IMG/VR virus record: IMGVR_UViG_3300048694_001005
Coordinates: 116,566 to 180,565 of that record
Length of the DNA: 64,000 nucleotides
Source: a virus
Reading direction: 5' to 3' (one strand)
Part shown: in pieces, positions 42,172 to 62,689 of the stretch
Numbering within the stretch: position 1 is the first letter of the stretch
Layout: each line of letters begins with the position of its first letter
Translations under genes and position numbers: made by a program
Notes under the pieces: generated by a model
Databases searched by the model: none
What the model was told of the DNA's origin: nothing
Seen by the model: only the letters and a program-made list of their open reading frames with translations

Positions 42172-42243
42172 TGGGGTGAGACTGGGAGTCACACCTGCCT
42201 CTGAAGCAGGATGGAGTTGGTTCGAGCCCAACCGCCCCCGCCC
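42172..42243 (+). tRNA. tRNA-Gln(CTG)
   Basis: CCTGC-CTCTGAA-GCAGG; T arm GTTGG-TTCGAGC-CCAAC; ends CCC. Confidence 0.8.
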
Positions 42244-48038: not shown

Positions 48039-48128
48039 GGGCGATACTGCCTGCGGGCGCGGGCGAGTATCCTGGAGTAAGGATATTTACAGCAAACCAA
48101 CTAATTGGTTCAACTCCAATATCGCCCG
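48039..48128 (+). ncRNA. tRNA-like RNA with anticodon arm replaced by ATCCTG/AGGAT-TACAGCAA domain
   Basis: Acceptor GGGCGAT/ATCGCCC, T arm ATTGG-TTCAACT-CCAAT. Confidence 0.65.
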
Positions 48129-48141
48129 CCTTATACAATAC

Positions 48142-48216
48142 GGGGACAGCGAAAGGTCGCGGATCTGCCTTGCAAGCAGATTGTCTACAAGGGAGCGTTA
48201 CCCTTGGTCTCCACCA
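48142..48216 (+). tRNA. tRNA-Ala(TGC)
   Basis: TCTGC-CTTGCAA-GCAGA; G3:T70; A73-CCA. Confidence 0.82.
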
Positions 48217-48242
48217 AATTAAATAGTGCGATACGATTCAGT

Positions 48243-48329
48243 GAAGGGTCGGCGAAGATGGTGAGTGTCGCGGCGGTCTGTAAAACCGTTACTTAAGAAC
48301 CGTAGTTTGTTCGAATCAAACACCCTTCA
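48243..48329 (+). tRNA. tRNA-Tyr(GTA), no encoded CCA
   Basis: GCGGT-CTGTAAA-ACCGT; long V arm; acceptor GAAGGGT/ACCCTTC. Confidence 0.82.
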
Positions 48330-49260
48330 CTGAGTCGTATTGATTTACCATAGAGATTAAATCTTCATATTTAATTGATGATTTAGATTTTTTTACTCCG
48401 TTGAGCCTGTGGGGCATTAATTCACAATTGCATGGATGTGAGATATAATAAGGATCATAATTATATTTGATGGCGTCTGATATAGATACTTTGTGATCCC
48501 TTGATAATCCATCAAGATTCCATCTGCCAGTTTTGCCCCCTGGAGCATAAAATCCTACCCTTTTTAAGAGCTCTATGTCGAATAAATCTGGATAATCATA
48601 AACGTTAAAGCAAAATCTATATTGCGATCGTTTATTTGAATGGAATTTCCGGCATGGGTTACAAAATTGCAACTGCGTTCTGGCTATGAATAATCCCTTG
48701 CAGTTTTTACAAGAGCAATAACAAATTTTGGAAAATGGACCAGATGGATTTACATTGATTCTTTTGATTCTACTTCTTCTATGTTTGTCGGCGCAACAAA
48801 GTTTCGCATCTTTTCTATTTAGATGTAATGATTTACATTTCCTGCATTTGAACGTTTTAGTTTTCTTATTGGATTTAGATTTTAAGGTTTGAGAAATCTT
48901 ACTTTTGGTTGTTTGGGTTACATTATACCCGTTCTCTATACGTTTTTTATTGGATATTTTGGCAGCACACTTATGTGAGCAAAATCGATTTTTTCTTTTT
49001 GAGTAGATTAAAACCTCACAACAATTTTCGCATTTTTTTGGAGATCTGCTATAATCGTTAATCCTTTGTGTTTGAGATTTTTCTAATTGGTTCTTACGAT
49101 TTAATATGGATTTTTGAGATCCTAATGAACGTTTAACCCTATTAAAGCCATCTTTTGTATGTGACGCTAGATAATGTGAGTGAATTCCTTTTGCAGATCT
49201 TACATCTTTACAAATTACGCAAGAGCAAAGTGCTGAAAAATAAATATGGTTGCTGGACAT
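48316..49260 (-). mobile_element. Putative homing endonuclease (Zn-fingers + SRDH domain)
   Basis: Multiple CxxC; LSRDHKVSISDA...HPCNC, paralog of 46510-47184; overlaps tRNA-Tyr 3' end. Confidence 0.7.
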
Positions 49261-49337
49261 GATTCGTTCCTTTCGAATTGTGTTGATGTCTAGGGCCAGT
49301 AGATGTTGACGCATCGTGACTGGCACTAAATTATTTA

Positions 49338-49366
49338 GTCAGGTTCGAATCCTACCTGATCCACCA
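49338..49366 (+). pseudogene. Orphan tRNA 3' fragment (T arm + acceptor strand + CCA)
   Basis: AGG-TTCGAAT-CCT-AC-CTGATCC-A-CCA with no matching 5' half upstream. Confidence 0.6.
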
Positions 49367-49398
49367 ATTAAAATGTTGCAGCGCACATAAATATCAGT

Positions 49399-49575
49399 AT
49401 GGATCGCGAAGACTTATTAAACGAAATCACAGCAGGTTTGCCCAGTGACAATGCTCACATAGCACGTTGTCTTGAACTAGCGGCTAATGAACCTGATGAT
49501 CTCATACGTGCATTTGCTCGATTGTGGCTGGAACATAACTGTGTAGCGATTGCTCGCAGACTGTTAGAACAGTAA
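49399..49575 (+). CDS. Small hypothetical protein (58 aa, not in ORF track)
   Basis: After CATAAATA; MDREDLLNEI... Confidence 0.55.
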   Translation: MDREDLLNEITAGLPSDNAHIARCLELAANEPDDLIRAFARLWLEHNCVAIARRLLEQ

Positions 49576-49581
49576 TCTCTT

Positions 49582-49659
49582 CGGTATATAGCGCAGCCCG
49601 GTAAGCGCACAGGTCTGGGGGGCCTGGGGTCGAAAGTTCAAATCTTTCTATACCGACCA
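49582..49659 (+). tRNA. tRNA-Pro(GGG)
   Basis: CAGGT-CTGGGGG-GCCTG; CCA. Confidence 0.9.
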
Positions 49660-49670
49660 ATTTAATCAAT

Positions 49671-49746
49671 GGTGACTATAGTGTAGTGGTCTGCACCGAA
49701 CGCTGTGAACGTTCTAGTGAGAGTTCAATCCTCTCTAGCCACCCCA
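49671..49746 (+). tRNA. tRNA-His(GTG)
   Basis: GAACG-CTGTGAA-CGTTC; G-1:C73; CCA. Confidence 0.9.
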
Positions 49747-49901
49747 AGAATTTCCTAGGCAGGCTGAACACCTGCGACAAAGTACTTCGCTCAGGTTAAT
49801 GGCCCAAACTCTACCGGCAAACACTCAATAGCTGAGCAGCATGGGGCAGGTCCAAATCCGTGTAATGCGGAGCTCAGTGGCGAAGGAAAGGAAACAGTTT
49901 T

Positions 49902-50024
49902 AGGATGCCTACAGCAATCAAATTGCCTTCTAAGCCGTGGACGGGGGTTCGATTCCCTCCGCTCTCCCCAATAATCTCTATGGAGAGTGTAGCTTAATGG
50001 TAAAGCACCGTAACGTGCATCCTG
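49902..50024 (+). ncRNA. Circularly permuted tRNA-like RNA (Arg TCT loop) inside AGGATGC/GCATCCT stem
   Basis: 3' half (CTTCTAA loop, T arm, CGCTCTC-C-CCA) precedes 5' half (GAGAGTG, D arm). Confidence 0.65.
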
Positions 50025-50055
50025 TGTTTATATTAAAATGGATACTAAATACTGC

Positions 50056-50772
50056 ATGCGCCTTTATGAAATAGACGAAGCAGGACTAAAAAAGCAAATA
50101 CTTGCACGGATTAATCAATCTGGACTACAGATGGTGCCTTTTAGGCTGCGTGATAATAGTGTATCACCTATAGTTTATTGGTCACAAAGATTCTTTGCTC
50201 TTGTAAAGCTGGGCACTGTAAACATGCCTTTTTATTTGAGTTCTGGAGAAGGCGGTAAGAAAAATGTTCCTGCTGGTAAATGGTATCCATTTTTTGGAAT
50301 AGGAGCAGATGGCTGGCTCAACAAATCTTCTGAGCAAGATATTGTCGCGTATTATAACAGCCCAATGTTAAAAAAGGTATCGCAGCAGTTGGATCAAATT
50401 ACTGGAGATTTGAGACCATACACCAACGTATTTCCACTAATAAACTCTACAACATTATTGGATATGGTAAACAAAGATTTAAACCCCTTGACTTACGATT
50501 CTCCAGAAGATGTGTCAAAAAATATTACGGATACAATTGCTAAAATACAGGGCCAAAACACACAGCAAAATACACAAAATACGGTGCAACCTCAATTGGT
50601 AAAACCTATCATAGATAAACTTATACAGGATTATGCCGGTAGGAAAATTGCTTGGAATGACATGATTAAGCAAATTGAAGACTTAATCAAAAAACGCCCG
50701 GACATAAAAGATAAAATCGTGAGTTATTTTAATTCACATCCCAGTATTAAGTCTTATATTAAAAATAGTTAG
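50056..50772 (+). CDS. Putative virion protein
   Basis: ATG 50056 after TAAATA; MRLYEIDE start. Confidence 0.55.
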   Translation: MRLYEIDEAGLKKQILARINQSGLQMVPFRLRDNSVSPIVYWSQRFFALVKLGTVNMPFYLSSGEGGKKNVPAGKWYPFFGIGADGWLNKSSEQDIVAYYNSPMLKKVSQQLDQITGDLRPYTNVFPLINSTTLLDMVNKDLNPLTYDSPEDVSKNITDTIAKIQGQNTQQNTQNTVQPQLVKPIIDKLIQDYAGRKIAWNDMIKQIEDLIKKRPDIKDKIVSYFNSHPSIKSYIKNS

Positions 50773-50784
50773 TCAAAAATTTAT

Positions 50785-50861
50785 GCCCCTGTACGTCAGT
50801 GGACTAGACTACCTCGCTTCGAACGAGGGAGACGGAGGTTCGAATCCTTCCAGGGGTGCCA
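50785..50861 (+). tRNA. tRNA-Arg(TCG)
   Basis: CCTCG-CTTCGAA-CGAGG; CCA. Confidence 0.9.
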
Positions 50862-50869
50862 AAGTTTTT

Positions 50870-50979
50870 AGGATCCTTCCAGCAACTAAAATCCAAACCG
50901 CGATACGTTGGTTCGAATCCAACCTGCTGGCAACAGCAGTAGCCAAGTGGTTAGGCAGCGGTCTCAAAACAGGATCCTG
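50870..50979 (+). ncRNA. Circularly permuted tRNA-like RNA with tetraloop-closed acceptor stem
   Basis: ACCGC, T arm, CTGCTG-GCAA-CAGCAG, D arm, GCGGT; flanked by AGGATCCT x2. Confidence 0.72.
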
Positions 50980-50987
50980 TATTATAT

Positions 50988-51065
50988 GTTCCCATCGTCT
51001 AGTCTGGCTTAGGACACCCGCCTTTCACGCGGACAACACCGGTTCAAATCCGGTTGGGAACGCCA
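50988..51065 (+). tRNA. tRNA-Glu(TTC), second copy
   Basis: Loop CTTTCAC; CCA. Confidence 0.9.
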
Positions 51066-51129
51066 AAATTGAATGACGCTTGACTTTGTATGTCAAATGT
51101 ATACAATAGAATGCAAAGGTAAATTTATC

Positions 51130-51531
51130 ATGGAAATGATTAAAACATATAACGCCTTGCGCGGACCAGTGAACAAATTTGAAGATCTACTGGGACGCAC
51201 GTTATATCGTGTTTGGGAAAATGGACAAGAACTACACTTGTATCTAACTGATACTCATTATGTGCGATTTTATCACGCGCAGGATTGTTGTGAAACTGTT
51301 GAGATTGAAGATATCTGCGGTGATTTGACAGATTTAGTGGGAGAACCTTTGACCGAAGCTGAGGAAGTTTACGGTTATACAGGCCCAGAAACTCATGATG
51401 AATCCTATACCTGGACTTTTTACAGATTCGCAACGCGTCGTGGTGCTGTTACAGTTCGTTGGTACGGCAGCAGCAATGGCTATTACGGCGAAGGTGTAAA
51501 TGTAGACATCGTAGGAAATTATGAAGGTTAA
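51130..51531 (+). CDS. Conserved phage hypothetical protein
   Basis: H.QDCCE.V.IEDI.GDL.DLVG.P, YTWTFY, SNGYYGE. Confidence 0.65.
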   Translation: MEMIKTYNALRGPVNKFEDLLGRTLYRVWENGQELHLYLTDTHYVRFYHAQDCCETVEIEDICGDLTDLVGEPLTEAEEVYGYTGPETHDESYTWTFYRFATRRGAVTVRWYGSSNGYYGEGVNVDIVGNYEG

Positions 51532-51535
51532 AAAT

Positions 51536-51621
51536 GCCCCAGTGGTGGAATTGGAAGACACGCAAGTTTCAGAAGCTTGTGCCCACAAGGCCTAGGAGTT
51601 CGAGTCTCCTCTGGGGCACCA
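51536..51621 (+). tRNA. tRNA-Leu(CAG)
   Basis: CAAGT-TTCAGAA-GCTTG; long V arm; CCA. Confidence 0.9.
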
Positions 51622-51643
51622 TTTATTCAACGAGGAGTTTGAT

Positions 51644-52135
51644 ATGGCGCGACGCAAGGCAGATAAGCCTCAGGTAAAGCAATATGGCTACAAGATAGCT
51701 GTGGAAAGACACTGCGAAGATTCATATCACAGTGGCAAACAATACGGCGAGTGGCGCGAAAGCTACAGCAACCACTTGAGCTCCATTGCCACACACGATG
51801 ACGAATATCCTGATGTGGTTTCCATTCACAAAATTGAACCTGGACAAGCGGCATTGGTGGTATGGGTTGAATGGAGCACGGGTGATAGTTTTGGTCACTC
51901 TGATCGTGGTTGCACTGAGATCATTGGGCTGTTCCGTGATATGAAGTCTGCAGAATCTTTGCGTCAGCAGATTGAATCCTGGCGTCGTAACGATAAGGCT
52001 AAAAAGTGGGATGAGCAGCATTCGTATCACTTTAAAACTCCGGATGGTCAGGAATTTACTTCAGGCTTCGCACCCTGGTCCGGATACTTTGACAGTTTGG
52101 ATTCAGTAAACATTGACTCAGTAGGTGTATTTTGA
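51644..52135 (+). CDS. Hypothetical protein
   Basis: SD GAGGAG; 163 aa. Confidence 0.65.
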   Translation: MARRKADKPQVKQYGYKIAVERHCEDSYHSGKQYGEWRESYSNHLSSIATHDDEYPDVVSIHKIEPGQAALVVWVEWSTGDSFGHSDRGCTEIIGLFRDMKSAESLRQQIESWRRNDKAKKWDEQHSYHFKTPDGQEFTSGFAPWSGYFDSLDSVNIDSVGVF

Positions 52136-52249
52136 AATCAGCAGTGACAATGGCGGCGTGGACTCAACGGCAGCGTAGGATTCGTAAAACTGCGCGTCGT
52201 TGGGCCCGCAAAATGAAACATAGAAATTTAATTTATCAGGAGTAACACA

Positions 52250-52375
52250 ATGAAGGCAACGTATCGCAAGATCAACGATCGCACTCAAAACTCCAGCAAG
52301 TATCACAAGAAGGATGGCACCGCTGTTCGTGCCCAGCTTAAGGAACAGCTTCGCAAAGAAACTAACAAGGAGTAA
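52250..52375 (+). CDS. Small basic protein (41 aa, not in ORF track)
   Basis: SD AGGAG; MKATYRKINDRTQNSSKYHKKDGT... Confidence 0.55.
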   Translation: MKATYRKINDRTQNSSKYHKKDGTAVRAQLKEQLRKETNKE

Positions 52376-52466
52376 CATTATGAAAGCGAGTAAACCATAG
52401 TGTCACTTTAAGTCCCGTCGTTGGGTTTAAAGTTGGCACGGTAAATCAATTTTAAACGACAACGAT

Positions 52467-52544
52467 GGGGGTGTAGCAAATGTTGACTTTGCATCGGACC
52501 TTTAATCCGAATAGACGTGGGTTTGATTCCCACCGCCCTCACCA
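52467..52544 (+). tRNA. tRNA-Lys(TTT)
   Basis: TCGGA-CCTTTAA-TCCGA; CCA. Confidence 0.85.
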
Positions 52545-52549
52545 TTAAC

Positions 52550-52624
52550 TGGTCGCAAGCTTTAATGGTGAAGCAGTAGGCTCTTACCCTACAGAACACG
52601 GATCGTTACCGTGGCGACCAACCA
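52550..52624 (+). tRNA. tRNA-Lys(CTT)
   Basis: GTAGG-CTCTTAC-CCTAC; CCA. Confidence 0.88.
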
Positions 52625-52633
52625 TAATAGAGC

Positions 52634-52708
52634 CCGTTGTGTATGCTAAACGGTACAGCCCACGCAGTGGTGCGTTAGATGCTGGGTTCGAGTCCCAGCC
52701 ACAGCGGC
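52634..52708 (+). ncRNA. tRNA-like RNA lacking an anticodon loop
   Basis: CCGTTGTG/CACAGCGG stem, T arm CTGGG-TTCGAGT-CCCAG, ACGCA-GTGG-TGCGT tetraloop arm. Confidence 0.5.
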
Positions 52709-52731
52709 CTCTACTATGGTTTTTAAACAAT

Positions 52732-52808
52732 ACGCCTGTAGCTCAACTGGAAAGAGCGTTGGTCTACGAAGCCGAAGGTTGGGGGTTCGAATCCCTCCAG
52801 GCGTGCCA
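52732..52808 (+). tRNA. tRNA-Arg(ACG)
   Basis: TTGGT-CTACGAA-GCCGA; CCA. Confidence 0.92.
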
Positions 52809-52846
52809 ATTACATTTGACTAATATAAATATTAGTCATACAATGC

Positions 52847-53707
52847 ATGTTTATGACAGAACGAATTTTAATCATGGGCCTGCCCGGTGCTGGTAAAACC
52901 ACACTGGCTGCGGCACTAAAAGAATATATTGAAACTAATAGCAATCCTAACCACATGCGGTTAGAACAACTGATGTTTGCCGACGGTATACCCAGTGTTT
53001 GGCATGCTAAGGTGGACTGGTTTAACGCTGATGATGTCAGACGTAAATTCAACGACTGGGATTTCAGTAGTGAAGGAAGAATACGGCAAAGTCTACGCAT
53101 GTTTCAGTTTGCAGTGGCCTGTACCGGAGATTTTGTTATTTGCGATTTCGTTTGCCCGTTGCAGGAAATGCGTAACAATTTTAAAGCTGACTGGACAGTA
53201 TGGGTAGATACCATAGAGGCCAGCAGATATAGTGATACTAACAAAGCATTTGTTAATCCCACAGTCTATGACTTCAGGGTAACAGAAAAGAACGCAGATC
53301 ACTGGGCCGCATTTATTGGTGACCACATTTTACGCAACCAACGTAGACCAACCTTTGACTGGCGCAAGCCTACCGTGCAAATGCTAGGCCGTTGGCAACC
53401 CTGGCATCAGGGTCATAAAGCGTTGTTTGAACGACTGTTGAAGCGTACTGGACAAGTAGTAATTCAAATACGTGATTGCCAGGGCTGGAATGGCAGTAAT
53501 CCATTTGCCCTGGAACAGGTAAAGAGCTTTATACGTCGTGATCTTGATCCAAAATATCAAGGTCAGTATGAAATACAAGTAGTACCCAATATTGTTCATA
53601 TAGGTTGGGGGCGCGGTGTTGGATATACTTCAGGCGAGGAACAGTTTGACGAGTCTATTACTAGTATCAGTGCTACAGAGATACGCAAAGATCTGGGATT
53701 AACTTAA
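52847..53707 (+). CDS. Adenylylsulfate kinase-like P-loop domain fused to cytidyltransferase-like domain
   Basis: MGLPGAGKTT, NADDVR, DFVCP; C-terminal LGRWQPWHQGH, YGRG-like WGRGVGY. Confidence 0.75.
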   Translation: MFMTERILIMGLPGAGKTTLAAALKEYIETNSNPNHMRLEQLMFADGIPSVWHAKVDWFNADDVRRKFNDWDFSSEGRIRQSLRMFQFAVACTGDFVICDFVCPLQEMRNNFKADWTVWVDTIEASRYSDTNKAFVNPTVYDFRVTEKNADHWAAFIGDHILRNQRRPTFDWRKPTVQMLGRWQPWHQGHKALFERLLKRTGQVVIQIRDCQGWNGSNPFALEQVKSFIRRDLDPKYQGQYEIQVVPNIVHIGWGRGVGYTSGEEQFDESITSISATEIRKDLGLT

Positions 53708-54406
53708 GTGTTGACAGAATCACTGATTGTTTTCACCACACCAAGATCAGGATCAACTTTATTATGTGATTGGTTACGGGCATTTTTACCTGGACATTAT
53801 CATGGTTTGGAACCCGACAGAAATGATAAACTTAAACTTCTCACCACTTCAACTGGAAAATTTTGGACTAAAGAAAATTATGAAAAACTTTCAACGTACG
53901 AAAAGTTGCTTATTATCGAAAAGTACAGACCATTCGTAGTAAAAGTTTTCCCATATGATGCAGCCTTATGTAATTTGATGACTACTAGAAAAGTAATTTT
54001 ATTAAATAGAAAAGACATCAAAAAACAAACATTATCACATGCTATTGCAGCCAAAACTAATAAGTTTAACGGAGCCAGCACGAATACAATTAGTGATTTG
54101 ATGTTGAGCAAGGAAGAATTTTTTCAAGTAATTTTTAAGCAATTGGCATCCGTACGGGATTTTGATAACATGAAATCTCGTATATCATCACAAGTAATAC
54201 TAGAACTAAATTACGAAGATTTTGAAAATGATCTTAACAATTTATTTGTAGCATTGCAGCCAGTATTGGGTTTGACCGAAGAACATCGCAAACTTATACC
54301 TAATAACTACGTTAAACAAAATATTAATCACGAAAGCAAAATTGCTAATATTGAATTGTTCAATGATTTGTGGGAAAAACATAAACATATAAGTGGTAGA
54401 TATTAA
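53708..54406 (+). CDS. Sulfotransferase (Stf0-like)
   Basis: TTPRSGSTLL 5'-PSB loop; L.RKD..KQ.LS; YEDF. Confidence 0.75.
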   Translation: MLTESLIVFTTPRSGSTLLCDWLRAFLPGHYHGLEPDRNDKLKLLTTSTGKFWTKENYEKLSTYEKLLIIEKYRPFVVKVFPYDAALCNLMTTRKVILLNRKDIKKQTLSHAIAAKTNKFNGASTNTISDLMLSKEEFFQVIFKQLASVRDFDNMKSRISSQVILELNYEDFENDLNNLFVALQPVLGLTEEHRKLIPNNYVKQNINHESKIANIELFNDLWEKHKHISGRY

Positions 54407-54413
54407 ATATTCA

Positions 54414-55148
54414 ATGCACAATATACCAAGACAAGTACATGTTTGCTGGCATGACAAAAATATAGTAAACAATACATCACCACTTGTTCTGAACGGGATA
54501 CGTAATTTGATAGATCTTAATCCTACTTGGACTATAACTATCCATAACGATAATGATATAGACCTATATCTTAAACAGGAATTAGAAAACAGTGACTATG
54601 ATTTGGTCAAAGACAGTCACATAGTAGCACGTTCAGATGTTTGGAGATTGCTTAAACTATATCGCGAAGGCGGTTTGTATGTAGATATAGATCGTTTCTG
54701 TAATAAAAATTTAGATGTGGTAATTGGCGAGAAAAAATGTATTTTACCCATAATGAATGATTACGACTTTAGTCAGGATTTTATGGCCAGCGAACCACAG
54801 AATCCCATATATCTAACTGCATTGATTATGAACCTTGAACGTAGACGTCAGGGTCATACTAATACATATTTTTTGGGTGCGCAAACCTATATGCATGCAG
54901 TAACTAAAGAAGTATGTGGTGAAATTATCAACACAGATCCTGGGTCAGAAGTATTTGCTGAAATTCGACAACAATTGGCAATGATGAACTTTATAGGTAC
55001 TAGCACCGAATTACCGCCCTGGCATACTGTTATATATGAACATGTACAGGAAACTTGGCGTGGCTCCAGTGATTGTATGGACTGGGAACAGTTAAAACGC
55101 AATTTATATGCAGACTACAATGTTAAACACTGGACTGGAGAATGGTAA
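54414..55148 (+). CDS. DxD glycosyltransferase (OCH1/capsule-synthesis-like)
   Basis: IPRQVH, SDVWRL..LY.EGGLYVDID. Confidence 0.8.
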   Translation: MHNIPRQVHVCWHDKNIVNNTSPLVLNGIRNLIDLNPTWTITIHNDNDIDLYLKQELENSDYDLVKDSHIVARSDVWRLLKLYREGGLYVDIDRFCNKNLDVVIGEKKCILPIMNDYDFSQDFMASEPQNPIYLTALIMNLERRRQGHTNTYFLGAQTYMHAVTKEVCGEIINTDPGSEVFAEIRQQLAMMNFIGTSTELPPWHTVIYEHVQETWRGSSDCMDWEQLKRNLYADYNVKHWTGEW

Positions 55149-55813
55149 TGCACACTGCTAAAGTACCCCGAATCTTTCAACCATTCTATTGTCCCGATCT
55201 TATTAGATTGGGCAAAGATTATGATGGCGGTTATCTAGCCAACAAACAGGATATAACTGCCGCATTACTATTAGTGAGTTTAGGAGTTGGTACTGATATC
55301 AGTTTTGAACGTGATTTCACAGACCTTAACAATTGTGATGTAAAAGCCTGTGATAAAGAATTACACAATATTGATGCAGCTACACTGGAATATTTTACAG
55401 GCGGTCGTCAACTGTGTCAGCAGGAGATAACTGCTGGCACACTGTATAGTATGTTAGCTACCGACCACATATTTTTAAAATGCGACATAGAAGGCGCAGA
55501 ATACAGTATCTTGGATGAACTTATCCAACATGCACATAAATTTACTGGCATGGTCATAGAGTTTCATGATTGCAATAGACCGGAAAATTACAATTCATTA
55601 TTGAACTTTATTGCAAAGATACCACTGCGGTTGGTACATACACATGTGAACAATTATTTTTACTACAAAACCGATACTGGACCTATTCCGGATATTTTTG
55701 AACTTAGTTTCAGCGCAGGATTGAACGTATTATATAAAACACAATTACGATTACCACATGAATTAGATATGCCAAATAATCCACAAGACGGTGAATTTGA
55801 ATTGAAGTTTTGA
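55148..55813 (+). CDS. FkbM-like methyltransferase
   Basis: RLGK.YDGGY, SLGVG.DISFE, LKCDIEGAEY. Confidence 0.7.
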   Translation: MHTAKVPRIFQPFYCPDLIRLGKDYDGGYLANKQDITAALLLVSLGVGTDISFERDFTDLNNCDVKACDKELHNIDAATLEYFTGGRQLCQQEITAGTLYSMLATDHIFLKCDIEGAEYSILDELIQHAHKFTGMVIEFHDCNRPENYNSLLNFIAKIPLRLVHTHVNNYFYYKTDTGPIPDIFELSFSAGLNVLYKTQLRLPHELDMPNNPQDGEFELKF

Positions 55814-55905
55814 ACTACTTAGATTTGACATAAACGTCATAGCATGTTAGACTGTGTAAATAGTATGTAAGAAATAGGCAGTAGATAGTTACATAAAGAA
55901 TAAAT

Positions 55906-55980
55906 GGGGCCAAAGTGTTGTTGGGGGCACACAAGATTTGCATTCTTGAAGGCGGGATTCGAGCTCCCGTGGCTCCACCA
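55906..55980 (+). tRNA. tRNA-Ala(TGC), second copy
   Basis: CAAGA-TTTGCAT-TCTTG; G3:T70; A73-CCA. Confidence 0.85.
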
Positions 55981-56003
55981 GAATTCAGTAACAAAGGAAC
56001 AAT

Positions 56004-56075
56004 TGCGGGGTAGTGTACAGAGCACGTCAGGCTCATAACCTGGAGGACCGTGAGCATTTCCGGCGACCGCAACCA
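56004..56075 (+). tRNA. tRNA-Met(CAT), initiator-like, degenerate T arm
   Basis: TCAGG-CTCATAA-CCTGG; TGCGG/CCGCA; CCA. Confidence 0.6.
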
Positions 56076-56080
56076 AATTT

Positions 56081-56136
56081 AGGATGGCTACAGCAAATTA
56101 AAAACACACCTTGTAAATGTGAAAAAACCCATCCTG
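56081..56136 (+). ncRNA. AGGAT-TACAGCAA element enclosing an anticodon stem-loop (TGT)
   Basis: AGGATGG/CCATCCT stem; inner CACAC-CTTGTAA-ATGTG. Confidence 0.6.
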
Positions 56137-58157: not shown

Positions 58158-58416
58158 TCAACACTTGACTCCACGCGGGTTGCTGCAAGCAATCTGAGGA
58201 AGTTCAGGACAAGCGCCAGGAGCGTATGGGAGATTGGGGTGGGCAGCACAGCCGATAGGCATGCTAGCCGATAACAGACAACGCGGCCCTGATCATTAAC
58301 ACCAGCGTGATATAGCTTGCAAGCCAAACAGAATGTGATAACTCTTGGATTATACATTCGGGTAGGTGCATAGATGAATGTGGAGATAAAACAGAATCCT
58401 GGCTATGGAGTGTTGA
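58158..58416 (+). ncRNA. rnpB: RNase P RNA (compact bacterial-type)
   Basis: GAGGAAGTTCAGG, GCAAGCCAAA, CGGGTAGG, TAGATGAATG, ACAGAATCCTGGCT match bacterial RNase P conserved regions; P1 and P4 pair. Confidence 0.88.
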
Positions 58417-62419: not shown

Positions 62420-62614
62420 ATGCGCAAACCAAGTCGTGGTACGGATTTAGATCGTCAAAAATGTGTAGCTGAAGCTGGTGGCAATCAATTTGATCTAGTA
62501 TTATTAGCAGCAGCACGAGCACGGCAATTAATGACAGAACGCAGTGACGCCGACAATTGTAACTCACCCATGACTGCGTTGTTAGAAATTCAGTCGGGCG
62601 AGTTGAAGAAATAG
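62420..62614 (+). CDS. rpoZ: RNA polymerase omega subunit-like protein
   Basis: GNQFDLVLLAAARARQL ... ALLEIQSG matches the omega signature; SD AAGGAG. Confidence 0.7.
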   Translation: MRKPSRGTDLDRQKCVAEAGGNQFDLVLLAAARARQLMTERSDADNCNSPMTALLEIQSGELKK

Positions 62615-62689
62615 CGCGGGTAGCTCAGAGGCAGCAGCATCTGCACGACATGCAGAAGGTCGAGATTTCGAAATTCTCTCCGCGTACCA
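62614..62689 (+). tRNA. tRNA-Val(GAC)
   Basis: TCTGC-ACGACAT-GCAGA; CCA. Confidence 0.82.

What the first reader, a model, noticed from the sequence alone, without database searches (positions are those of the whole stretch)
48039..56136. Four-copy RNA family: AGGAT-N3-(T)ACAGCAA...ATCCTG domain joined to tRNA parts in circularly permuted orders
Seen: (i) 50870-50979: outer stem AGGATCCT/AGGATCCT, then tRNA 3' half (ACCGC, T arm), acceptor stem closed by a GCAA tetraloop, then 5' half (D arm, GCGGT); a tRNA opened at the anticodon. (ii) 49902-50024: same outer stem (AGGATGC/GCATCCT), 3' half with CTTCTAA loop and CCA preceding the 5' half. (iii) 48039-48128: normal tRNA order, with the anticodon arm replaced by the permuted domain (ATCCTG before AGGATATTTACAGCAA). 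(iv) 56081-56136: the domain alone enclosing an anticodon stem-loop (TGT). Stem bases co-vary while the ACAGCAA core is near-invariant (CCAGCAA in copy i). Established: permuted tRNA genes are known in red algae and some archaea. Inference: a tRNA-mimic, decoy (for anticodon nucleases or T-box-like sensors) or splicing/circularising RNA module; I cannot assign it to a known family.
Basis: partly seen in the sequence, partly recalled or inferred. Interest (0 to 1): 0.87.

Follow-up and report, generated by a model that had tools for sequence, protein, structure and literature searches.

The report
Phage Y-like RNAs displaying tRNA parts
The four elements are real members of a very large, uncatalogued family of virus small RNAs that share one conserved "handle" and hold out tRNA pieces; across other phages this handle travels with a ring protein that folds like the RNA-surveillance protein Ro60, so they are most likely a new kind of Y RNA, though this half-genome record does not show the protein gene.

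Summary
Observation confirmed. All four copies sit where stated, on the tRNA strand. They share a 7-bp closing stem (AGGAUNN/NNAUCCU), the unpaired motif N-U-N-CAGCAA, an A-rich return strand and a 3' G.

It is not a four-copy oddity. The same handle occurs at least 119 times in IMG/VR, in two cultured phages (Ralstonia RSP15, Stenotrophomonas DLP6) and in giant-virus MAG contigs. It nearly always lies in tRNA arrays, about 5 nt from flanking tRNAs. The stem covaries strongly (99.9% paired over 149 sequences).

The body varies: an anticodon-stem-loop look-alike (copy iv) or tRNA-like domains in several permutations (copies i-iii).

The handle co-occurs with a DUF2828/DUF7788 protein: 34 of 46 positive records, 6 of 6 near-complete ones, and none of the handle-free relatives of this phage. 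The RNA often lies within 300 nt of that gene. The protein models as Ro60 (top 13 PDB hits).

Best reading: Y-RNA-like partner RNAs of a Ro60-like ring protein. They are not working permuted tRNA genes. The protein gene is absent from this 51%-complete record.

The handle also recurrently matches Rfam's Dictyostelium Class I RNA model below threshold.

This scan met the same family before in many other genomes. I found no paper or Rfam family describing it.

The parts
56081..56136 (+). Copy iv, the canonical minimal handle RNA (56 nt). P1a 56081-56087; motif CTACAGCAA 56088-56096; anticodon-stem-loop look-alike 56105-56121 (loop CTTGTAA); A-rich strand 56122-56128; P1b 56129-56135; G 56136.
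   Evidence: Family model R1 scores 57.4 bits, E 2e-11. The loop is identical to that of the phage's own tRNA-Thr(UGU). It lies 5 nt after a CCA end.
50870..50979 (+). Copy i: handle enclosing a tRNA-like domain with a sealed acceptor. P1a 50870-50876; TTCCAGCAA 50877-50885; ACCGC 50897-50901; T arm 50907-50923; acceptor CTGCTG-GCAA-CAGCAG 50924-50939; D arm 50942-50956; GCGGT 50958-50962; P1b 50972-50978; G 50979.
   Evidence: R1 scores 31.8 bits. Rfam YrlA scores 25.7 bits on the tRNA-like core only, model positions 23-85. The fold has z -3.2. It sits 8 nt from tRNA-Arg and 8 nt from tRNA-Glu.
49902..50024 (+). Copy ii: handle enclosing a tRNA permuted at position 26/27. P1a 49902-49908; CTACAGCAA 49909-49917; anticodon arm 49922-49938 (loop CTTCTAA); T arm 49943-49959; acceptor 3' strand 49960-49966; C73 and CCA 49967-49970; linker 49971-49981; G-1 and acceptor 5' strand 49982-49989; D arm 49992-50006; P1b 50017-50023; G 50024.
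   Evidence: R1 scores 34.0 bits, E 1e-4. YrlA scores 30.9 bits on the core. The same layout occurs in the cultured phage DLP6 and in many loci. The loop equals that of the phage's own tRNA-Arg(UCU).
48039..48128 (+). Copy iii: tRNA-like RNA in normal order, with the handle as a capped hairpin in place of the anticodon arm. Acceptor 5' strand 48039-48045; D arm 48048-48065; P1b 48067-48073; G 48074; loop 48075-48079; P1a 48080-48086; TTACAGCAA 48087-48095; T arm 48104-48120; acceptor 3' strand 48121-48127; G73 48128.
   Evidence: Exact motif hit. The fold has z -4.3. It is not called as a tRNA by ARAGORN or Rfam. The same layout occurs in L088, L454 and L463.

Best explanation
The four elements are small non-coding RNAs of one virus-borne family built on a constant handle. 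The handle has four parts:
- a 7-bp stem that closes the RNA (consensus AGGAUNN/NNAUCCU);
- the single-stranded motif N-U-N-CAGCAA just after its 5' strand;
- an A-rich strand just before its 3' strand;
- a 3' G, usually followed by U.

The handle holds a variable body. The body is an anticodon-stem-loop look-alike (iv) or a tRNA-like domain joined in different permutations (i-iii).

Shown: they lie in tRNA slots of the phage's tRNA array on the tRNA strand.

Inferred: they are therefore co-transcribed with the tRNAs and cut out by the enzymes that process the neighbouring tRNAs.

Inferred from gene linkage and predicted fold: the handle is the docking site for a Ro60-like ring protein (DUF2828 plus DUF7788: a helical ring plus a vWA domain). 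It would play the role that the terminal stem with the GNCGAA motif plays in YrlA-type Y RNAs.

Inferred by analogy with Ro60, Y RNA and PNPase: the tRNA-like body tethers or gates the ring protein towards enzymes or RNAs of the tRNA world. These could be damaged tRNAs, exonucleases, repair enzymes or anticodon nucleases during infection.

In this record the protein gene is not seen. The record is about half of the genome.
For: Family and structure:
- At least 119 IMG/VR stretches match the 19-base pattern. Of 101 unique matches, 91 also pair at the two stem positions the pattern leaves free, against 14% expected by chance.
- A looser descriptor gives 307 hits against 21 in shuffled sequence, over 1.12 Mb.
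- In 149 distinct sequences 99.9% of stem cells pair, 6 of 7 pairs show compensatory change, and slid controls pair at 34-48%.

Context:
- 96 of 110 perfect-stem elements lie in loci with tRNAs.
- 1257 of 1258 of those tRNAs are on the same strand.
- The commonest gap is 5 nt to the upstream tRNA; most gaps to the downstream tRNA are 5-10 nt.

Bodies:
- 42 of 144 short elements carry a strict YU-NNN-AA 7-nt-loop hairpin. Shuffles give a mean of 0.8 and a maximum of 5.
- tRNA-like bodies occur in four or more join orders.

Partner protein:
- DUF2828 is present in 34 of 46 handle-positive records, although most are fragments, and in 0 of 3 false-pattern controls.
- All 6 handle-positive records that are at least 90% complete have it: G010, G030, G048, G064, G065, G066.
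- Among 15 gp23 relatives of this phage, only G048 has handle RNAs and only G048 has DUF2828. The complete relatives G049 and G050 have neither.
- An RNA lies within about 300 nt of the DUF2828 ORF on the same strand in at least 14 records, and in MAG contigs L275 and L293.
- DUF2828 also lies next to the RNA arrays in giant-virus contigs L393 and L440.

Fold:
- The AlphaFold2 model has pLDDT 89. Its top 13 PDB matches are all Ro60/TROVE structures, with E from 4e-8 to 7e-5 and TM about 0.6 over the full length.

Precedent:
- YrlA Y RNAs have a terminal stem plus a GNCGAA motif and a tRNA-like domain. The M. smegmatis one is cut by RNase P and receives CCA (PMC4201824).
- Thermus phage phiLo Ro60 binds upstream-encoded Yrl RNAs through a CGAA bulge (PMC12135203).
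Against: - No DUF2828 and no TROVE is found in the 180 kb held for this genome.
- At the spot syntenic to the G048 gene, downstream of the shared release-factor-like gene, this genome has none.
- 12 handle-positive records lack the gene, but most of them are fragments. The most complete are G016 (71%) and G024 (64%).
- Binding has not been shown for any member of the family.
- The handle lacks the GNCGAA motif of known Y RNAs, and Rfam YrlA matches only the tRNA-like cores, far below threshold.
- What the particle does is pure analogy.
Confidence: 0.7

Rival explanations
1. Stand-alone decoys or sponges. The displayed anticodon loops and tRNA-like domains soak up host anticodon nucleases or other tRNA-binding defence or modification enzymes. 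The handle serves only as a stabilising and processing scaffold, with no dedicated protein partner.
For: Loop mimicry is strong. The loops of copies ii and iv are identical to those of the phage's own tRNA-Arg(UCU) and tRNA-Thr(UGU). The commonest displayed triplets are UUU, UGU, UCU, GUU and GUA; from my own knowledge, several of these are known anticodon-nuclease targets. This record has four RNAs and no DUF2828.
Against: This does not explain why the handle sequence, rather than the body, is the conserved part. It does not explain the tight linkage and presence/absence match with DUF2828. Many bodies are not anticodon-like at all. The reading is compatible with the main explanation as a downstream role.
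Confidence: 0.15
2. Working permuted or split tRNA genes. The halves are processed and rejoined, or held together by the outer stem, to give functional tRNAs, as in red algae or Nanoarchaeum.
For: In copies i and ii the 3' half precedes the 5' half. Copy ii and DLP6 encode CCA followed by a linker and a 7-bp acceptor strand.
Against: The acceptor of copy i is sealed by a GCAA tetraloop. Copies iii and i have no anticodon loop. Copy iv has no acceptor, D arm or T arm. The outer stem is an uninterrupted helix with no bulge-helix-bulge. The handle joins tRNA bodies at the acceptor, at position 26/27 or in place of the anticodon arm, so no common mature tRNA results. No RtcB is present in the record. 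The phage already encodes ordinary tRNA-Arg(UCU) and tRNA-Thr(UGU).
Confidence: 0.04
3. A small self-cleaving or self-circularising ribozyme, or a mere punctuation element, that helps to cut up the long tRNA-array transcript.
For: The element occupies tRNA slots with tRNA-like spacing. The terminal nucleotides are conserved: A at the start and G-U at the end. Permuted forms exist.
Against: No ribozyme family matches, even at E up to 10. Only one helix and unpaired strands are conserved, with no pseudoknot or multi-helix core. Punctuation would not need linkage to a Ro60-like gene, nor tandem arrays outside tRNA clusters.
Confidence: 0.05

Closest known systems
YrlA/YrlB bacterial and phage Y RNAs bound by Ro60 (Rsr); Rfam RF02553; Chen et al. 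2014 (PMC4201824); Thermus phage phiLo Ro60 with Yrl1/Yrl2 (PMC12135203)
   Same: Modular plan: a stem made by the 5' and 3' ends, with a short conserved unpaired purine-rich motif on the 5' strand, plus a tRNA-like domain (T arm, D arm, acceptor-like stem). Copy i mirrors the Salmonella type with a closed acceptor. Copy ii mirrors the M. smegmatis type, which is cut by RNase P and receives CCA. Both are encoded next to a ring protein with the Ro60 fold, and several RNAs occur per genome.
   Different: The motif is N-U-N-CAGCAA rather than GNCGAA(N)G, and the stem sequence is different. The RF02553 score is 26-31 bits against a threshold of 69, and only on the tRNA-like core. The partner is DUF2828/DUF7788, not Pfam TROVE: 0 of 16 records have TROVE. 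Many members carry only an anticodon-loop mimic. The RNAs are embedded in tRNA arrays. No binding data exist.
Class I RNAs of dictyostelid social amoebae; Rfam RF01414; Kjellin et al. 2021 (PMC7919456)
   Same: Length about 60 nt and low GC. A short terminal stem conserved in structure but not in sequence. A conserved unpaired motif next to the 5' strand (CCUUACAGCAA, against YUACAGCAA here). A variable middle. A-G at the start and C-U-G-U at the end. RF01414 is the only non-tRNA Rfam model that keeps hitting these RNAs: 13 full-length hits of 21.6-29.2 bits in 35 kb.
   Different: Every hit is below the 41.5-bit threshold; copy iv scores 15.3 bits. The phage stem is 7 bp, against 6. The phage RNAs are expressed from tRNA operons, not from DUSE promoters. 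Class I RNAs are not known to carry tRNA parts or to bind a Ro60-like protein. The paper reports them as unique to Dictyostelia. Homology or convergence is undecided.
Circularly permuted tRNA genes of Cyanidioschyzon merolae and some archaea (from my own knowledge: Soma et al. 2007)
   Same: The 3' half is encoded before the 5' half, with a short linker between CCA and the 5' end (copy ii).
   Different: There is no bulge-helix-bulge at the termini and no way to restore an anticodon arm. The acceptor is sealed in copy i. The constant handle is foreign to tRNA.
Two-piece (permuted) tmRNA (from my own knowledge: Keiler et al. 2000; Rfam RF04321)
   Same: A permuted tRNA-like domain whose acceptor piece carrying CCA lies upstream of the 5' piece.
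   Different: There is no tag reading frame and no G3-U70. Only T-arm-level matches are found, at 13.6 bits.

Membership tests
Y RNA, YrlA type (RF02553) | Encoded beside or with a Ro60 (TROVE) ortholog | tested here: inconclusive
   At family level the handle is linked to a protein with the Ro60 fold, but that protein is DUF2828, not Pfam TROVE. In this genome neither is found in the 51% held.
Y RNA, YrlA type (RF02553) | GNCGAAN0-1G motif on the 5' strand of the Ro-binding stem | tested here: not met
   The YrlA consensus is acggCgaAUGC... (PMC4201824). Here the stem is followed by N-U-N-CAGCAA.
Y RNA, YrlA type (RF02553) | tRNA-like domain with T arm, D arm and acceptor-like stem | tested here: met
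   Copies i, ii and iii have all three. Copy iv has only an anticodon-arm mimic.
Y RNA, YrlA type (RF02553) | Reaches the Rfam gathering score (69 bits) | tested here: not met
   25.7 bits (i) and 30.9 bits (ii), over model positions 23-87 only.
Y RNA, YrlA type (RF02553) | Physically bound by the Ro60-type protein | not testable with these tools
   Needs EMSA or immunoprecipitation.
Dictyostelium Class I RNA (RF01414) | 42-65 nt RNA closed by a short covarying terminal stem | tested here: met
   Copy iv is 56 nt. The stem covaries. Copies i-iii are longer (90-123 nt).
Dictyostelium Class I RNA (RF01414) | 11-nt motif CCUUACAGCAA next to the 5' stem strand; ends AAG... and ...CUGU | tested here: inconclusive
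   8-9 of the 11 motif letters are shared (CUACAGCAA, UUACAGCAA). The start is A-G-G and the end is C-C-U-G-U.
Dictyostelium Class I RNA (RF01414) | Reaches the Rfam gathering score (41.5 bits) | tested here: not met
   15.3-16.1 bits for the window copies. The best phage copies reach 29.2 bits.
Dictyostelium Class I RNA (RF01414) | Own DUSE promoter about 60 nt upstream | tested here: not met
   The copies sit 5-8 nt from flanking tRNAs inside a bacterial-type tRNA operon.
Permuted tRNA gene (red-alga or archaeal type) | Bulge-helix-bulge at the joined termini for the splicing endonuclease | tested here: not met
   The terminal stem is a continuous 7-8-bp helix without bulges.
Permuted tRNA gene (red-alga or archaeal type) | Processing yields a complete cloverleaf with a free CCA end and an anticodon loop | tested here: not met
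   The acceptor of copy i is sealed by GCAA. Copies i and iii have no anticodon loop.

The most novel reading that the evidence does not exclude
The handle RNAs and the DUF2828 ring protein form an ancient Ro60-like particle shared by phages, giant viruses of eukaryotes and cells. The orphan Class I RNAs of Dictyostelium would then be its eukaryotic members: Y-like RNAs whose unknown partner is a DUF2828-type protein, rather than an invention unique to social amoebae.
Probability: 0.3. Interest if true: 0.9.

Novelty: new variant of a known kind. Interest (0 to 1): 0.75.

Why it matters
Ro60 and its Y RNAs are a classic but poorly understood RNA-surveillance particle. Here a second, much larger branch appears, with thousands of DUF2828 proteins and hundreds of RNAs. 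It is concentrated in the tRNA arrays of large phages and in giant viruses, and its RNAs literally display anticodon loops and tRNA bodies.

That points to a role in the fight over tRNAs during infection. It can be tested in cultured phages (RSP15, DLP6), where both parts are currently unannotated or labelled 'hypothetical'.

It also explains a class of 'scrambled tRNA' sequences that gene finders miss or could miscall.

Finally, it offers a concrete, testable lead for the function of Dictyostelium Class I RNAs, which have had no known relatives.

Tried and rejected
- Rfam at gathering and permissive thresholds found only tRNAs, plus sub-threshold YrlA and Class I hits.
- TROVE, RtcB and DUF2828 searches of this record were all empty.
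- Megablast of the region against GenBank phages gave no match. BLAST with a two-element stretch was swamped by tRNAs. A single-element query did find RSP15 and DLP6.
- ORF 50038-50772, which starts 13 nt after copy ii, was tested as an alternative partner. It has no Pfam or PHROG family, and its 46 relatives elsewhere lie away from tRNAs and handle RNAs. Rejected.
- Other ORFs of about 460-480 aa in the record are capsid, tail or other proteins, not Ro-like.
- The scan of prokaryote genomes with the pattern gave mostly chance hits (94 of 120 lack the stem). The few true ones sit in phage-like MAG contigs.
- The profile of the DUF2828 alignment against PDB sequences found nothing; only the fold comparison shows Ro60.
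- I tried to learn whether Dictyostelium encodes DUF2828 through protein names, cluster members and the ESM Atlas. None of these gives organisms, so this is unresolved.
- Papers that mention DUF2828 are plant or tardigrade gene lists without function.

Full report
**What is in the window**

The window is the last 64 kb of a 180,565-base IMG/VR virus record estimated to be 51% complete. The virus is a T4-like myovirus with gp23 and gp15 homologs. It carries an array of at least 36 tRNA genes, all on the + strand.

The four elements lie in that array at the coordinates given. AGGATNNNNNCAGCAA matches exactly four times in the window and in the whole record. With one mismatch allowed there are 7 matches against 1.6 expected, and none of 100 shuffles reached 7.

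Each copy has:
- a 7-bp stem whose first five pairs are AGGAU/AUCCU and whose inner two pairs differ between copies but stay complementary (AU/GU, GC/GC, CC/GG, GG/CC);
- then Y-U-M-CAGCAA, unpaired;
- and a G directly after the 3' strand.

Copy ii is a tRNA opened between the D arm and a complete anticodon arm (loop CUUCUAA), not in the anticodon loop. Its acceptor ends in C73-CCA, followed by an 11-nt linker and G-1.

**It is a large family, not a four-copy oddity**

- Of 101 unique matches, 91 also pair at the two stem positions the pattern leaves free. Chance would give 14%.
- A looser descriptor (any 7-bp stem, then N-T-N-CAGCAA) gave 307 hits against 21 in shuffled sequence over 1.12 Mb. 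It revealed stem variants AGGUU, AGAAU, GGGAU and AGAUU with matching 3' strands.
- A covariance model (R1) finds 161 copies in 892 kb.
- On 149 distinct sequences 99.9% of stem cells pair, 6 of 7 pairs show compensatory change, and slid controls pair at 34-48%.
- The 3' G, which the descriptor did not impose, is present in 84% of copies and is followed by U in 73%. An A-rich run precedes the 3' strand.
- R1 scores the window's copy iv at 57.4 bits, ii at 34.0 and i at 31.8.
- Copy iii is circularly permuted relative to the model. The same 'capped handle inside a normal-order tRNA' layout recurs in L088, L454 and L463.
- Two cultured phages carry the family unannotated: Ralstonia phage RSP15 (four copies) and Stenotrophomonas phage DLP6 (four copies, one of the copy-ii type).
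- Contigs named as giant-virus MAGs carry tandem arrays of 61-64-nt copies, up to nine in a row.

**Context and bodies**

- 96 of 110 perfect-stem elements lie in loci with tRNAs.
- 1257 of 1258 of those tRNAs are on the same strand.
- The commonest gap is 5 nt after the upstream tRNA; most gaps to the next tRNA are 5-10 nt.

The element therefore occupies a tRNA slot. Presumably it is released from the array transcript by the processing of its neighbours; this step is inferred.

The body between the handle strands varies:
- a weak A/U-rich hairpin alone;
- D arm, anticodon arm and T arm in normal order, with the handle stem where the acceptor would be;
- a tRNA permuted at position 26/27;
- T arm, acceptor and D arm without an anticodon arm;
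- or larger structures.

Among 144 unique short elements, 42 have a hairpin with a strict YU-NNN-AA 7-nt loop. Shuffles give a mean of 0.8 and a maximum of 5. The commonest 'anticodons' are UUU, UGU, UCU, GUU and GUA.

In this window the loops of copies ii and iv are identical to those of the phage's own tRNA-Arg(UCU) and tRNA-Thr(UGU), while the stems differ.

So the constant part is the handle. The tRNA parts are interchangeable cargo joined at different points. This argues against any common mature tRNA.

**The partner**

My first guess was a Y-RNA-like RNA, because Rfam's YrlA model matched the tRNA-like cores of copies i and ii. But this record has no TROVE protein.

Earlier notes of this scan named DUF2828 as a candidate partner. 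I tested that claim on my own sample.

- Pfam DUF2828 is present in 34 of 46 handle-positive records, although most are 7-30% fragments. It is present in both cultured phages and in none of three false-pattern controls.
- Four further handle-positive records all have it.
- All six handle-positive records that are at least 90% complete have it.
- Among 15 relatives of this phage chosen by capsid protein (79-91% identity), only G048 has handle RNAs and only G048 has DUF2828. The complete relatives G049 and G050 have neither.
- Comparing coordinates, an RNA lies within about 300 nt of the DUF2828 ORF on the same strand in at least 14 records. In G010, for example, the RNA ends 19 nt before the ORF.
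- The same holds in two MAG contigs. In two giant-virus contigs the gene lies next to the RNAs.
- Canonical TROVE is absent from all 16 records tested.

The protein is about 470-485 aa and carries DUF2828 plus DUF7788. It has thousands of homologs, nearly all labelled 'hypothetical'. PHROGs calls its family an RNA-binding protein. An AlphaFold2 model from a 33-sequence alignment has pLDDT 89. Its top 13 PDB matches are all Ro60 structures: Xenopus and human Ro60, Deinococcus Rsr and Thermus phage phiLo Ro60. E-values run from 4e-8 to 7e-5 over the full length. Sequence profiles do not see this relationship.

**Mechanism**

Shown:
- the family and its stem;
- its tRNA-array context;
- tRNA and anticodon-loop mimicry;
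- linkage to a protein with the Ro60 fold.

Inferred:
- The handle is that protein's binding site. It would correspond to the terminal stem plus GNCGAA motif of YrlA RNAs (PMC4201824) and the CGAA bulge that phiLo Ro60 needs (PMC12135203).
- The body acts as the effector module. In known systems the Y RNA tethers Ro60 to PNPase and gates its cavity. The M. smegmatis YrlA is cut by RNase P and receives CCA, a close parallel to copy ii.
- By analogy, these RNAs would direct a phage ring protein towards tRNA-handling enzymes or damaged tRNAs, or shield tRNAs from them, during infection.

I put 0.7 on 'partner RNAs of the Ro60-like protein'. I put much less, about 0.3, on any specific downstream role.

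**The gap for this genome**

- No DUF2828 or TROVE gene is found in the 180 kb held.
- The spot syntenic to the G048 gene has none.
- The ORF just downstream of copy ii is unrelated to the system.
- Since 6 of 6 near-complete handle-positive genomes encode the protein, it is probably in the missing half. This cannot be shown here.

**Comparison with known families**

These RNAs work like YrlA-type Y RNAs but fail membership. The motif is different, the score is 26-31 bits against 69, and the partner belongs to a different Pfam family.

They are not permuted tRNA genes of the red-alga or archaeal kind: there is no bulge-helix-bulge, the acceptor can be sealed, and the anticodon loop is missing.

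They are not tmRNA: there is no tag frame.

The handle resembles the Class I RNAs of Dictyostelium. Those are about 60 nt, have a short covarying terminal stem, carry CCUUACAGCAA next to its 5' strand, start AAG and end CUGU (PMC7919456). Rfam RF01414 hit 13 handle RNAs full-length at 21.6-29.2 bits in 35 kb. About 0.002 hits would be expected for one family at that E cut-off. Every hit is nevertheless below the 41.5-bit threshold, and the window's own copies score only 15-16 bits. Homology or convergence is open. I could not find out whether dictyostelids encode DUF2828.

**Novelty**

I found no Rfam family. No paper among those searchable describes the RNA or DUF2828's function.

The same family was noted by this scan in many other genomes. 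This window adds:
- four different architectures in one array;
- a rare capped form;
- a clean presence/absence test among close relatives.

Noticed in passing
window 48142-48216: A cloverleaf tRNA-Cys(GCA)-like gene with a 7-bp anticodon stem and a 6-bp T stem, ending in CCA. Neither ARAGORN nor Rfam calls it.
   Followed up: partly
window 55997-56075: A tRNA-like sequence with a CAU loop, ending ...CAACCA just before copy iv. No tool calls it and it folds poorly.
   Followed up: partly
window 49747-49901: A 155-nt ORF-free spacer between tRNA-His and copy ii. It folds no better than shuffled sequence (z +0.3). Its purpose is unknown.
   Followed up: partly
window 49960-49989: The acceptor of copy ii has an extra G-1 opposite C73 plus an encoded CCA, the hallmark of a bacterial tRNA-His end. 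Yet its anticodon loop is that of tRNA-Arg(UCU).
   Followed up: no
window 58158-58416: A sub-threshold RNase P RNA match (archaeal model, 39.6 bits, E 3e-8) between tRNA-Pro and tRNA-Leu. Another follow-up of this scan has already reported it.
   Followed up: no
window 62614-62686 and 42172-42240: tRNA matches found by Rfam only (37.5 and 26.8 bits); ARAGORN misses both.
   Followed up: no
L031 4845-5279: A phage-encoded tmRNA (111 bits) is followed 3 nt later by a canonical handle RNA.
   Followed up: no
L415 10099-10553; also L393, L399, L447: Contigs named as giant-virus MAGs hold tandem arrays of near-identical 61-64-nt handle RNAs, up to nine copies, outside any tRNA slot. A DUF2828 ORF lies next to them in L393 and L440.
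   Followed up: partly
L501 (RSP15, LC121084.1 87646-89001): In the cultured Ralstonia phage RSP15 the DUF2828 protein is ORF108, labelled 'hypothetical protein', inside the tRNA region. Its four handle RNAs are unannotated.
   Followed up: partly
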